Below are positions 39,639 through 49,379 of a stretch of 64,000 nucleotides of DNA, piece after piece. Under the pieces are notes generated by a model. That model made no database searches and had not been told where the DNA came from. It saw only the letters and a program-made list of their open reading frames with translations. This DNA comes from Octopus vulgaris. Lineage: Eukaryota. The stretch covers positions 170,376,001 to 170,440,000 of the forward strand of contig OX597816.1 of assembly GCA_951406725.2 (NCBI GenBank). The letters run 5' to 3'. Both the position numbers and the translations under genes were made by a program. The number at the start of each line of letters is the position of its first letter. Position 1 is the first letter of the stretch.

Positions 39639-39800
39639 CCAGCAAAGGTACCCGGCGTTGCCCGGGAATGAAATTGTTCGTTATAGAAGAAGAAAAAAGC
39701 AAAATATTTTGTATAGAAATTTGTAATTCAAAATTCAATTTATTCTTCAATTGGGATGCAATTTATTCTTTAATTAGGAAATCGATTCTGAATCCATAAT
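39639..39800 (-). mobile_element. Helitron 3' terminus
   Basis: Minus strand reads CCCGGGCAACGCCGGG hairpin (39666-39651), 8 nt spacer, then CTGG|T, fitting the CTRR|T rule. Confidence 0.75.
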
Positions 39801-39975
39801 ACAAAATAATAATAATAATAATAATAATAATAATAATAATAATAATAATAATAATAATAATAATAATAATAATAATAATAATAATAATAATAATAATAAT
39901 AATAATAATAGTAATAATAATAATAATAATAATAATAATAATAATAATAATAATAATAATAATAATAATAATAAT

Positions 39976-40670
39976 CATGTAACGATGAGATTGAAACGGT
40001 AGACCACCTAATCTCAGGGTGTAGAGTCTTAGCACCTGTAGAATATAAAGCAAGACATGACAGCGTCGGCCAATATTTACACTGGGCAATATATCTGCAT
40101 TATATAATATCAAAACCGCTGACAAATGGTATAAACACCATCCTGAAGCTGTGACTGAGGGAGAAAATGTGTCGATTCTATGGGACTTCCCCGTACAGAT
40201 CGACAAAGCTATAAAAGCTAATAAACCGGATATTATTAGACAAAAAAGATGTGTTTATCAATTGACATGAGTATCCCTTGCGATCACAATATAGCGGCGA
40301 AAGAATTTGACAAGATTAGTAAATAGAATTTGAAAAAATGTGACATCTCAAGGCGACTACAGTACCAGTGATTGTAGGATCTCTAGGAATGATAAAAAAA
40401 GATGCTGAAACCTATTTGAAAATGATTCCAGGCTTACCATCCCTACAGGAAGTGCAAAAATCGTGTTAACTGGAACAGCTCATCTACTGAGAAGAGCATT
40501 GTCGCTGTGAAAACATTAATGAATTTATTTATTCATTAATTTTTTAAACAGATATTTTACCTGTGAATTTGCGTGTGTAATCTGGGAATGCATACAATGT
40601 GTTTCTCTGCCCTAGGTGTACGGAAAACACTCGGCGAGAAACGGAAGAAAATTGGAAGAAAGAAGGAAAA
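39976..40670 (+). mobile_element. R4/Dong-type element B, 5'-truncated (RLE domain and 3' UTR)
   Basis: ETVDHLISGC..LAPVEYKARHD, ILWDFPVQIDK..ANKPDI, PVIVGSLG, then a 3' UTR ending in (TAA)n. Preceded by (TAA)n 39805-39975. Confidence 0.85.
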
Positions 40671-40779
40671 ATAATAATATTAATAATAATTATAATAATG
40701 ATGATAATAATAATAATAATAATAATAATAATAATAATAATAATAATAATAATAATAATAATAATAATAATAATAATAA

Positions 40780-45243: not shown

Positions 45244-45379
45244 ATAATAATAATAATGATGATAATAATAATAATAATAATAATAATAATAATAATAATA
45301 ATAATAATAATAATAATAATAATAATAATAATAATAATAATAATAATAATAATAATAATAATAATAATTCAAACTTTAT

Positions 45380-46848
45380 AGTAAAGATGAAGTCCAAGTC
45401 ATTTCCCTCGATGATACGGTGTATACATTCAGTGCTAATATTGGAATGGAGTTCGGACTGAGAAGGTATGGTGTATTAGACTCGAAGAGAGGCAAAATCA
45501 AATGTATGGCCGGGATAACGATACCGTCGGGCGAGGTTATGAAGCAGATAGAAGAGATGGGCTATAAGTACTTGGGGAATTTGGAAATGGATAAATTCAT
45601 GGAGAAAGAAGTAACAGATAAATTTAAGGCGGAGTACTTGCGCAGACTGAGACTGATCCTTAAGTCGAAATTAAACGGACGGAATAAGATCGAAGCTATC
45701 AACACCAGGGCGGTTTCACTCCTTAGATATGGAGCAGGAGTAATCGCATGGACAGCAAACGAATTAAACAGCTTAGACAGAAAGACAAGGAAGTTGCTTA
45801 CTAGATATGGGTCACTCCACCCAAAAAGTGACAAAGACAAAATCTATGTACCAAAAAAAAAGAGTGGCAAGAGGACTTATTGGATGCGAACACAGCATTA
45901 GAGAAGAAGAAAGCAACAGAGTATGGTATGTGAAAAAATGCCACAGAACCGCTATTATTAGAAGTAAGAAGGTCAGGCTTGTGTAGGATGAAAGATTGCC
46001 AAGATAAAGCACTATACAAGAAGTTGAAAACGAATGGAACTGAAAATAGGTGGATAAGGATAAGAAAGCATGGTCAATTTCATAAGGATGTTGAAGACTA
46101 AAAGTGATTTAAAACCGGATACGGAGGCTCTAATCTGTGCTGTCTGAGAACAAGCACTAAGAAAAACTACATAAAATACAGAATAGACAACACGGCAGAA
46201 AGTGATAATTGCAGAATCTGTGGACAAAACGGTGAAACCTATGGTATATAACCAGCCAATGTACGCCACTAGTCCAGAAGGAATATAAGAGACGCTACGA
46301 CAATATAGCTAGCATTGTCCATTGGACACAAGTATGGACTTGAATAGAGCGAAATATTGATACGATCACAAACCTGAAGGCATCGTTGAAAATGGAAATG
46401 TAAAGATCCTATGGGATTTTATGATTCAGTGCGACCATGAGAATAGGAAAGCTAGACATAGTCTTAATTGAGAAAGAAAACAAACTATGCTGGATCATAG
46501 ATATAACATGCCCGGCTAACAAGAAGGTATGTGATAAGGAAGAAAGAAAAGTCGATAGATATGACAGGTCAGCTTGGGAAGTTGAGCAGTTGTGGCCGAT
46601 GAAAAAGTAACAGTAGTGCCAATAATTGTCGGAGCCCTGGGAACAGTGAGCAAAAATCTCGAGAAATACGTCGAACAAATAGGGGCTGCAATAAGGGTGG
46701 AGCATTTGCAGAAAACAGCACTGCTTCGAACAGCTCGAATACTCCAGAATGTGCTCGAAAAATACGAGGTGTTACCTTAGTTCAGTGATAATGAACAGCT
46801 AACGCTGTAATACATCTCCAGCGTTAGAAGCTGTGTGCAAAGGCAATC
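45380..46848 (+). mobile_element. R4/Dong-type element D, 5'-truncated
   Basis: IGMEFGL, YKYLG, LNGRNKIEAIN, CRICG, ILWDFMIQ, VPIIVGALG, then a 3' UTR and (TAA)n 46850-46952. Confidence 0.88.
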
Positions 46849-46952
46849 ATAATAATAATAATAATAATAATAATAATAATAATAATAATAATAATAATAA
46901 TAATAATAATAATAATAATAATAATAATAATAATAATAATAATAATAATAAT

Positions 46953-49379
46953 CGAAAATACAAAATACACCACATTTATGAACGGAGATAAATTCTGTCA
47001 CATTATGTTTAAGGAAATTACGTAAGAGATTCTGAGTAACAACATTCTTTGTTTTCTGGTTTGGAGCATAGACAAATAAGTCTGGCAAACTACTAACCCT
47101 GGGGCAACCAACATAAAGTTGACCATGAGAAAAGGAAAGGTCCATTAAATACAAGCCAGTGGATTTCAAAGTCTGACCTTGAGCTTTATTGACAAACATT
47201 GCGAAGCAAAGTCGCATTGGGAATTGTGTTCGTTTGAAATCAAGATAATGCAACAAAACAGAATTGCACTTGCTGTAGCATTGTCTGGCTTTGCTGCCAC
47301 TATTCTCTGAGGAGGACAAGCAGCTCGTTCTGCTTTTAAATTACCACTAAACCTGGTCACAAATGGCAGTCCAATTTGTAACATAAGCAAAGGTTCAGGT
47401 TCATCAGAAGTGTTCCGCTGATGCCTCATTAACATTTTGGGATGAATGCACCATGTCACATAGAGGTGCAATGGAAGCTCTTGGTAAGACCTTACAGGAC
47501 ATAAGAGGCAACAATAAATCTATGGGAGGAGTTACATTACTTTTATCAGGAGACTTCAGACAGACATTTCTAGTCATTCTGAGACGAACAAGATCTGATG
47601 AAATAAAAGCATGCATTAAGTCTTCACACCTATGGAATAAAGTACAGAAATTCCCTTTTTTCTAATTGGAGGAGCCGGGTTGAAAACTGTTTTGCACATT
47701 GGTCCTCATGTAATAAAACTCGCACGTTAGTAGTGAAGGGGAATTTCTGTACTTTATTCCATAGGTGTGAAGACTTAATCGATGCTTTTATTTCATCAGA
47801 TCTTGTTCGTCTCAGAATGACTAGAAATGTCTGTCTGGAGTCTCCTGATAAAACCAATATTACTCCTCCCATAGATTTATTGCTGCCTCTGATGTCCTGT
47901 AAGGTCTTATCAAGAGCTTTAATTTCACCTCTATGTGACATGGTTCATTTATCCCAAATCACCAAATGGCATTGGCGCAACACTTCGGATGAACAGAATA
48001 GACTGTCATTTGTGACCAGCTTTAGTGGTAATTTAAAAGCAGAACGAGCTGCTCGTCCTCCTCAGAGAATAGTGGCAGAAAAGCCAGACAATGCTACATC
48101 AAGTGCAATTCTGCTTTGTTGCATTACCTTGGGGAAAAGCAATGATGTTACAAATATTTTACTCGTGTCACCAGGAGCATCAAGAAAGAAAATTTCTCCG
48201 CTTTCTTCTCTGACTAACAAAATAATTTTATCATATGCACAACGTTGTTCTGGCAGAAGTTTAGGTTCATGTTCATTGACAAATGCAGCAAATTATGTGA
48301 TGTCATAATGTGTCTCTCTTGCTCTATCTCTTGAAGTTGAATTATTAATTTGACAGTTTGTTTTTGGCAGTCCAGAGCTAGACGCTTGCAAATGTTTGCC
48401 TCCCATGGCCAAAACTTGATACTCAATGTCAATCAGTGCTTGGTTAAAAATTGTTCCAGAGAACTGAATATTGATATCTGGGTTTGCCTGTTGAACTGCA
48501 TATTTTAAGTCCTCCCAATGTTTCATCCAAAGCTGTAAGCGACTGCCAGATTGACACGTGTTCAGTATAATTGCAAAACGGTTACGAAGGTTCCTTCGAG
48601 AATCTGATACTGATGCTTCACTCAATGCATGGTACCAGTGCTCATCATTCTCTAAATAACCTTTTTGATAGCATGTGTCCCTATAAGTTTCACACACATG
48701 ACTATTTCTCATCTTCCAATCCTGGAGCGATTTAGGATCACGTACTTCAGGCAAAAGATACCGTAAGTAGTAGCACTCTGCTTGGCTTGGCTTGGCTGGA
48801 CACTGTGAGCTCTTGCAACAGCGTCGCCACACGTTTCCTCTTGTGCAATTTATTGTTTCTGCAGGTGTAATACTTGGGTAATATTGGGTAAAGGAATTTT
48901 CTTGCATCTTTATGTACTTGGTACAATTTTAAAAAGGTAGTAAGGGTAGCTTCTTTTGAAGAAAGTGCTTGTTGCAAGGCTGTTTGATTTGTAAAGTTAA
49001 CCCTGTGGCTATTCTTTAGATGGATATTAAGATGAATGATAGCTGAGTTCCTCTCATAAAAGGGAAAATTGAAACTACGCCAAACATTCTCATTGGTACT
49101 AATGTATCTTCCCCTGTCATACTGTGCAACTTCGTCATTCTTATTTATCTGCTGACTGCCAGTCTGCATAAGAATGTATGTTGCAGCTCTAAAAAATTGT
49201 TTGAATATTTGCAAACATTCTTCAAAAGAGTTGCAGAATTCAACATTGAGTATTCGTCTTTGCTTCACTTTAGAATACTGGTCATCTACATCTACCCCCG
49301 TCTCCTCTTGTAGAGAATGAGAACATTGTTTACGGAAACGCTTTTGAAAATTAAAATGGGGGTTAAATAAGTTACATGA
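46953..49379 (-). mobile_element. Helitron RepHel pseudogene (inter-domain region and PIF1-like helicase), internally deleted and rearranged
   Basis: DEVAQY..GRYIS..E.VWR, YYLRYLL, LENDEHW..ALSEA, FFLDAPG, GGV..VLSGD.RQ, RTQFPMRLCFAMFVNKAQGQT, FSHGQLYVGC.RV. The 5' boundary is uncertain. Confidence 0.88.

What the first reader, a model, noticed from the sequence alone, without database searches (positions are those of the whole stretch)
39639..49379. Four different R4/Dong retrotransposons stacked head-to-tail in (TAA)n, nested inside the 3' end of a Helitron
Seen: (TAA)n-B-(TAA)n-A-(TAA)n-C-(TAA)n-D-(TAA)n over 39805-46952, all on + and with clearly different protein sequences. The Helitron helicase ends just right of the array. 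A Helitron hairpin and CTGG|T terminus in the same orientation lie just left of it. AATACAAAATA flanks the array at 39798-39808 and 46957-46967. Known: Dong elements of the R4 clade target TAA repeats through an RLE endonuclease. Inference: a first insertion split the Helitron and left a TAA tail, and each new tail became the target for another family. This would be a self-renewing multi-family landing pad that also manufactures microsatellites.
Basis: partly seen in the sequence, partly recalled or inferred. Interest (0 to 1): 0.75.

Follow-up and report, generated by a model that had tools for sequence, protein, structure and literature searches.

The report
Dong retrotransposons piled in Helitron microsatellite
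Four broken copies of distantly related jumping genes sit head to tail in a run of TAA repeats that another transposon already carried; such piles are common in this octopus-like genome and likely follow from the known habit of Dong elements of landing in TAA repeats, so the locus is real but ordinary.

Summary
Real, and largely explained by known biology. Four same-strand RT/RLE retrotransposon fragments (families 34-55% identical in protein, 1-11% from their consensus) lie between five (TAA)n tracts inside the 3' region of a Helitron; both flanks lie together in 32 of 47 other Helitron loci. Two inferences fail. The Helitron family already carries a TAA tract at this site (median 7 units), and both AATACAAAA motifs occur in 9 of those 32 loci, so there is no target-site duplication and the first insertion did not create the seed. 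Young family-A copies have TAA at the 5' junction in 54 of 60 cases and at the 3' junction in 55. Adjacent R4 pairs are same-strand 56:1, mostly different families. Chains of 2-3 elements occurred 7 times in 600 kb of unselected DNA. A lands beside an older R4 copy no more often than tract length predicts, so stacking needs no special pad. Net TAA synthesis is not shown. TAA targeting by Dong is published, and so are similar arrays (MoTeR). The scan noted similar stacks earlier in other genomes.

The parts
39639..39806 (-). Helitron 3' end: CTGG|T terminus (39639-39642), GC hairpin (39651-39666), AT-rich 3' region
   Evidence: 83-88% identical to 39 other listed places in the genome; 7.8% from consensus
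39796..39975 (+). (TAA)n tract 1; begins with the Helitron's own native TAA site
39976..40670 (+). Element B: 5'-truncated Dong/R4-type copy (CCHC knuckle, RLE, complete 3' UTR), broken frame, 4.6% from family consensus
40670..40779 (+). (TAA)n tract 2
40780..44190 (+). Element A: 5'-truncated copy (from about aa 150 of a 1268-aa frame) of a young, very abundant family; RT, CCHC, RLE, 3' UTR; frameshifts and an internal deletion; 1.1% from consensus
44189..44357 (+). (TAA)n tract 3
44358..45243 (+). Element C: internal RT-to-knuckle fragment; 5'-truncated and missing its 3' ~670 bp; 11.0% from consensus
   Evidence: exact-match contig pieces in run X2
45244..45368 (+). (TAA)n tract 4
45369..46846 (+). 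Element D: 5'-truncated copy (RT C-terminal part, CCHC, RLE, 3' UTR), broken; 7.5% from consensus
46845..46952 (+). (TAA)n tract 5; ends in the Helitron's native right-hand motif
46953..47243 (-). Helitron continued: end of the helicase frame and start of the 3' region; joins the left flank across a TAA tract in other copies
47242..47657 (+). Inverted 416-bp duplicate of helicase sequence, replacing about 520 bp of the Helitron
   Evidence: Pfam PIF1 E 7e-17; left junction bridged by one contig of run X2 (record 18)
47658..49370 (-). Helitron RepHel coding fragment (degenerate), cut at its 5' side by a (TA)n run

Best explanation
This is a pile of four broken copies from four distantly related Dong/R4-type retrotransposon families, on one strand, inside a TAA microsatellite that the host Helitron family carries near its 3' end; it was likely built by four separate insertions, each of which would split one TAA tract into two. 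Shown: the seed tract is native to the Helitron family; A-family copies have TAA at both junctions genome-wide; neighbours are same-strand and mostly of other families; both sides of older elements are used. Inferred from R2-type biochemistry (own knowledge) and the Dong literature: the restriction-like endonuclease nicks the TTA strand inside any long enough tract and primes reverse transcription there, which fixes the orientation and leaves TAA on both sides. Each insertion raises the number of tracts by one, and tracts lengthen, probably mostly by slippage. Later families pick tracts roughly by length, so piles arise passively. Apparent order: C and D early, then B, then A; C later lost its 3' end by deletion.
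For: Flanks contiguous across a TAA tract in other Helitron copies: both flanks in 32 of 47 loci, 29 of them within 7-225 bp. Native tract median 7 TAA units, range 0-48, n=30 parsed. A copies: TAA at the 5' junction 54 of 60 by script (2 more by eye), at the 3' junction 55 of 60; a random point has a same-strand tract within 120 bp 0.8% of the time. Adjacent R4-R4 pairs in 181 seeded loci: 56 same-strand, 1 opposite (p=8e-16), 47 of the 56 between different families; pair orders are roughly symmetric (A>B 7, B>A 6; A>E 11, E>A 9). Unselected 600 kb: R4 fragments cover 3.3%; 7 chains of 2-3 elements; 10 of 10 pairs same-strand. A beside an older R4 in 23 of 50 copies against a length-weighted expectation of 35-40% (p=0.14-0.39). 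Divergences A 1.1, B 4.6, D 7.5, C 11.0, Helitron about 8%. Dong targets (TAA)n in insects, molluscs and cnidarians (PMC7998251 section 3.3; PMC3812793 passage).
Against: No read or contig spanning a TAA junction was examined. C (11.0%) looks older than its host Helitron (about 8%), though not significantly (Fisher p=0.10); subfamily structure may inflate it. Per tract, counting tracts of 3 or more units, A does sit beside R4 more often than chance (23/50 vs 24/116, p=0.001); the excess vanishes only when weighting by length or using tracts of 5 or more units, and the samples are small. In the unselected sample many older R4 fragments have no tract within 120 bp (17 of 29 5' ends; 18 of 26 scorable 3' ends), which may reflect decay or hits that stop short of the 3' UTR. 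Clade membership was not tested against named Dong/R4 sequences. The F-A pair is asymmetric (F>A 5, A>F 1).
Confidence: 0.82

Rival explanations
1. One reading: the first insertion cut the Helitron at AATACAAAATA (a target-site duplication), left a TAA tail, and each new tail became the next target.
For: The 11-mer flanks the array exactly twice. One A copy (L281) has no 5' TAA yet ends in 4 TAA units, so the element may bring a short tail of its own (n=1).
Against: Both motifs and a TAA tract between them are present in other Helitron copies (9 of 32 carry both exact motifs; alignment). 5' tracts of A are as long as 3' tracts (median 25.5 vs 19 units, p=0.12). Ages along the array are not monotonic.
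Confidence: 0.05
2. Active feedback: the elements add TAA on one or both sides during integration, or prefer tracts next to earlier elements, so piles attract more insertions than their TAA length explains and the elements are the main makers of TAA microsatellites here.
For: A-flanking tracts total a median 49 units against 7 at Helitron sites (p=7e-10). Tracts touching R4 or E are longer (21 vs 4 units, or 23 vs 16 for tracts of 5 or more units) and hold 49-57% of the TAA units counted in the unselected sample.
Against: Longer tracts are also likelier targets, so the comparison is confounded. Helitron sites without an R4 insertion reach 25-48 units. No excess over the length-weighted expectation. 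5' and 3' tract lengths are uncorrelated (r=0.10).
Confidence: 0.3
3. Assembly artefact: unrelated loci were joined through TAA repeats, which would also give same-strand order.
For: Junctions lie in simple repeats; no spanning reads were examined.
Against: The two outer flanks are consecutive parts of one Helitron with similar divergence (7.8% and 8.2%). The tracts are only 110-180 bp. The same pattern recurs in a SINE-like host and in other Helitron copies (L011). C-specific pieces and the rearranged Helitron junction occur in contigs of run X2.
Confidence: 0.03
4. The pile was brought together by recombination or deletion between TAA tracts of separate neighbouring insertions.
For: C lost its 3' end by a deletion that ends at a TAA tract, so deletions do occur here.
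Against: No Helitron sequence is missing at the site, so nothing lay between separate insertions to be deleted. 5' truncation points abut TAA directly, as expected for insertion.
Confidence: 0.05

Closest known systems
Dong (Bombyx mori), DongAg, DongBg and Darwinula Dong1/Dong2: TAA-targeting R4/Dong non-LTR retrotransposons (PMC3812793 passages; PMC7998251 passages and section 3.3; Xiong & Eickbush 1993 not held; Kojima & Fujiwara 2004 seen only as a reference)
   Same: Single frame with RT and C-terminal RLE, no N-terminal zinc fingers, a probable divergent Myb/SANT domain, insertion into (TAA)n; the target is stated for molluscs.
   Different: The passages read do not describe multi-family stacks, nesting in a Helitron-borne tract, or the share of a genome's TAA that abuts these elements.
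MoTeR1/MoTeR2 arrays of Magnaporthe oryzae (PMC7367193 passages)
   Same: Retrotransposon with a putative REL endonuclease plus a non-coding partner, in homogeneous or mixed arrays, always head to tail, separated by variable tracts of the target repeat; insertion internalises target repeats.
   Different: Telomeric TTAGGG target and two related elements, with arrays also grown by break-induced replication; here the target is an interstitial microsatellite and at least six coding families of different ages take part.
Dong-R4 LINEs of octopus genomes (PMC13282606 parts 1-2 of 3 and passages; PMC8967140 passages)
   Same: Dong-R4 is abundant in coleoids; 5 recently active families with 1129 insertions are reported for O. 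vulgaris. Family A here is likewise young and abundant.
   Different: In the main texts the words 'nested' and 'target' (PMC13282606) and 'nested' and 'microsatellite' (PMC8967140) gave no hits. The PMC13282606 supplement and repeat library were not read, so whether A-D are in that library is untested.
TRAS/SART telomeric-repeat-specific LINEs of Bombyx (named in PMC7367193; details recalled)
   Same: Several families share one simple-repeat target in fixed orientation and cluster.
   Different: APE-type endonuclease, R1 clade, telomeric repeat (recalled).

Membership tests
R4/Dong clade | Single long frame with a non-LTR reverse transcriptase | tested here: met
   1268-aa frame in an intact family-A copy (L081); RVT_1 E 3.5e-28 for window A; the only PDB matches are R2 proteins. 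B, C and D were tested only on partial consensus frames.
R4/Dong clade | C-terminal CCHC knuckle and restriction-like endonuclease | tested here: met
   A aligns with R2 through the knuckle and the PD...D...K region. The motifs are visible in the B, C and D consensus translations. Window copy C has lost this part.
R4/Dong clade | N-terminal divergent Myb/SANT domain without zinc fingers (PMC7998251) | tested here: inconclusive
   Family A only. The N-terminal 100 aa fold as four helices (pLDDT 93.6; invariant W11 and W43). Best match Sap1 DNA-binding domain Z 6.7, rmsd 7.1, 87 aligned; R2 residues 147-215 Z 4.9, rmsd 3.6, 69 aligned; SANT, TRF and Zeste domains Z 4.4-4.9. These are below the tool's trust level, and Foldseek gave no hit at E<=0.001. 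No CCHH finger is visible in the L081 N-terminus.
R4/Dong clade | Insertion into (TAA)n in fixed orientation | tested here: met
   A: 54 of 60 5' and 55 of 60 3' junctions. B and D family copies end in TAA, and so do C copies that keep their 3' end (output partly cut). Same-strand pairs 56:1. 5' junctions of B, C and D were not counted.
R4/Dong clade | RT phylogeny groups with named Dong, R4 and Rex6 rather than HERO, NeSL or R2 | not testable with these tools
   No named reference was returned. The quick tree with 25 of 120 unnamed homologs shows only that the five local families fall in at least four separate places.
Helitron | PIF1-type helicase | tested here: met
   PF05970 E 7.3e-17 on the inverted piece; helicase end read from copy L024.
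Helitron | 3' hairpin followed by CTRR and insertion before T | tested here: met
   Window CTGG|T; 18 of 29 other copies CTAG|T.
Helitron | 5' TC terminus and Rep motifs | not tested
   The coding fragment stops at a (TA)n run near 49370; two upstream frames gave no Pfam hit; the 5' end was not sought.
Target-site duplication of the array | Motif present once at the empty site | tested here: not met
   Both motifs are present in 9 of 32 other copies (alignment).

The most novel reading that the evidence does not exclude
A guild of at least six deeply diverged Dong lineages, with non-coding passengers, multiplies its own target in this genome: Helitron- and SINE-borne TAA seeds nucleate piles, every insertion adds a tract and adds TAA on both sides, and this feedback has made about half of the genome's TAA microsatellite and sustained the Dong-R4 expansion of octopus over tens of millions of years.
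Probability: 0.3. Interest if true: 0.55.

Novelty: new member of a known kind. Interest (0 to 1): 0.3.

Why it matters
The locus itself is ordinary debris, but it is a clean example of one transposon carrying the target site for another group. If the genome-wide figures hold (about 3% of DNA in R4 fragments, about half of the TAA units touching these elements or their passenger, thousands of piles), TAA microsatellites here are largely tied to Dong activity. That matters for repeat annotation, for microsatellite markers, and for explaining why Dong-R4 expanded in coleoids. Piles also order the families by relative age, and the young, intact family A makes target choice and TAA addition testable.

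Tried and rejected
Target-site duplication: rejected. Tail-only, directional stacking: rejected. Extra attraction of existing piles: not detected after length weighting. Placing A-D against named clades: a homolog search (1196 hits, best 120 listed, none named Dong or R4) and the atlas (only 'hypothetical', RVT_1) gave no references; the careful tree did not finish, so the quick tree is used. Foldseek on the N-terminal model gave no significant match. Rfam found nothing in 38500-50400. Read support for the TAA junctions was not obtained: only stretches without a whole tract were laid; the one raw-read run (about 3% read) laid 0 reads, which is no test; contigs are too short to bridge tracts. 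A shared 3' tail between element E and families A-G was not found. Literature: six searches ran and none listed a paper on multi-family Dong stacks; most subscription journals, Repbase entries and the PMC13282606 supplement were not seen, so this is weak evidence of absence. A by-sequence look-up of earlier findings returned nothing.
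Full report
Setting. The window is G000:C3:170376001-170440000 in a 2.80-Gb animal assembly of 227 contigs. Genome size and the density of AT-rich microsatellites make it octopus-like; that is my inference, not a tool result.

Observation. Five TAA tracts separate four + strand fragments B, A, C, D. An intact relative of A (L081) has one 1268-aa frame; window A matches it at 96% DNA identity from about residue 150 on, while B, C and D match that protein at only 23-36%. 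Window A carries RVT_1 (E 3.5e-28). The full protein's only solved relatives are R2 proteins, which align through RT, zinc knuckle and restriction-like endonuclease. Each fragment belongs to its own repeat family: A has at least 150 places at 95-100% protein identity among 81,817 first-look candidates; B, C and D each returned 39 further top places at 83-90%, 73-80% and 87-89% DNA identity. Using L081 for A and consensus translations for B-D, the families are 34-55% identical. In a quick tree with 25 of the 120 listed homologs they fall in at least four separate places, A and B each next to an unnamed outside protein, C and D with P0080 (careful search unfinished, no named references). All four copies are 5'-truncated. 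C also lacks its 3' ~670 bp: other C copies run on through the knuckle to a TAA tail about 680 bp later.

The Helitron. Of 47 other loci seeded by either flank, 32 hold both; 29 of these have them 7-225 bp apart, one has a deletion, and two have other inserts. So the array sits inside one Helitron. But the other copies already have a TAA tract at this point (median 7 units, range 0-48, 30 loci parsed), and 9 of the 32 carry both AATACAAAA motifs around it. The 11-bp 'duplication' is therefore native sequence, and the seed came with the Helitron. Another copy (L011) has an independent insertion of a TAA-tailed element at the same site. Further right, about 520 bp of helicase is replaced by an inverted 416-bp helicase piece; one contig of run X2 bridges its left junction with 3 differences in 124 bases.

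Targeting. For 60 family-A copies fetched with flanks (chosen from the best-scoring hits, 20 of them for long open frames), a TAA tract lies at the 5' truncation point in 54 by script and at the 3' end in 55. Two more have TAA followed by a short duplicated piece of A; most 3' misses are alignment stops. A random point has a same-strand tract within 120 bp 0.8% of the time. 5' and 3' tracts are of similar length (median 25.5 vs 19 units, p=0.12) and uncorrelated. In 181 loci seeded by Helitron or A-D hits (some overlap one another), adjacent R4-R4 pairs across a tract are same-strand 56 times and opposite once; 47 of the 56 join different families, and both orders occur. At least two more coding families (F, G) and a 550-bp non-coding element (E) take part; pairs involving E are 52 same-strand and 6 opposite.

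How common. Sixty 10-kb stretches at fixed round positions on 13 large scaffolds hold R4 fragments over 3.3% of their length and 28 chains: 21 single, 4 of two and 3 of three elements, all 10 pairs same-strand. Three chains of three in 600 kb extrapolate to about 14,000 per genome (wide error, roughly 3,000-40,000). No strict chain of four was seen, so this locus is at the long end. A second A-then-F stack lies in this same window at 19804-20308. In that sample 18 of 56 tracts of 5 or more units touch a same-strand R4 and 1 an opposite one; tracts touching R4 or E hold 49-57% of the TAA units counted.

Is there a special pad? A copies have an older R4 neighbour in 23 of 50 scorable cases. Per tract that is more than the 24 of 116 for all tracts of 3 or more units (p=0.001), but not more than the 18 of 56 for tracts of 5 or more (p=0.17) or the length-weighted 35-40% (p=0.14-0.39). 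Random choice among tracts by length is enough, within these small samples.

Ages. Substitutions from family consensus: A 1.1%, B 4.6%, D 7.5%, C 11.0%, Helitron flanks 7.8% and 8.2%. A<B and B<D are significant; D versus Helitron and C versus Helitron are not. The consensus sequences come from hits chosen by likeness to the window copies, so these are rough. Left to right the array reads 4.6, 1.1, 11.0, 7.5, which is not a one-way tail chase.

Mechanism. Shown: native seed, TAA on both sides of insertions, fixed orientation, several families, use of both flanking tracts. Inferred: endonuclease nicking of the TTA strand and target-primed reverse transcription (own knowledge of R2-type elements); a Myb-like N-terminal domain as the likely reader of the target (the model is helical and resembles Myb/SANT folds only weakly; proposed in PMC7998251). 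Whether the elements add TAA is open. For: A-flanking tracts total a median 49 units against 7 at Helitron sites, and one A copy without 5' TAA still ends in four units. Against: long tracts are likelier targets, and Helitron sites without an R4 insertion also reach 25-48 units.

Comparison with what is known. TAA targeting by Dong, DongAg and DongBg is stated in PMC3812793 (passages) and for molluscs in PMC7998251 (section 3.3). Mixed head-to-tail arrays separated by tracts of the target repeat are described for MoTeR (PMC7367193 passages). Dong-R4 is known to be abundant and active in octopus (PMC13282606 parts 1-2 of 3; PMC8967140 passages). PMC4640811 (passages) lists the RLE clades and notes that some HERO families also target microsatellites, so the clade label rests on architecture and target, not on a tree with named members. 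Six searches listed no paper on multi-family Dong stacks; supplements and Repbase were not seen. Earlier notes of this scan report similar Dong stacks or nestings in other genomes and Tx1 stacks in this one; these are unchecked notes and I did not use them as support.

Verdict. It is an expected product of known TAA targeting in a genome rich in both Dong families and TAA seeds. The parts worth keeping are the Helitron-borne seed and the genome-wide numbers. Interest 0.3; new member of a known kind.

Noticed in passing
window 19804-20308: A second stack: TAA, a 3' end of an older A-like copy (85%), TAA, then a family-F fragment (98%); further on an E copy and another decayed R4 copy (20842-22095).
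   Followed up: partly
window 47242-47657: Inverted 416-bp duplicate of helicase sequence replacing about 520 bp of the Helitron; its left junction is also in a contig of run X2.
   Followed up: partly
L231:5752-6313, L225:1760-2319, window 20842-21264: Element E: about 550 bp, non-coding, with a fixed 3' end and variable 5' starts (68 of 90 hits reach the 3' end; TAA follows 55 of them) and many young copies; no 3' tail shared with families A-G. Possibly a passenger of Dong or of another LINE, and a source of TAA seeds.
   Followed up: partly
L073, L123, L128, L183, L184, L273, L282: A SINE-like repeat with a tRNA-like head and an internal TAA tract hosts insertions of A, B, D and other R4 copies at that tract, a second transposon-borne seed. 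The part after the tract contains what looks like a hammerhead core (recalled motif, not tested).
   Followed up: partly
L011:1660-2700; L040: Two other Helitron copies have different inserts at the same TAA site (element E with long tracts; an unrelated repeat).
   Followed up: partly
window 39183-39512: Fold-back just outside the Helitron end (arms 72-86% complementary); the minus strand translates to what looks like a GIY-YIG nuclease piece of a Penelope-like element (recalled motif).
   Followed up: no
window 11262-12377 (+): Intact single-exon 372-aa frame of a rhodopsin-family GPCR (7tm_1, E 1.8e-20).
   Followed up: no
L086, L099 (5' junctions of A): Short tandem duplications of element sequence between the TAA tract and the 5' truncation point, suggesting re-priming during integration.
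   Followed up: no
window 56394-56449: About ten copies of CTAACC, a telomere-like hexamer, in an internal position.
   Followed up: no
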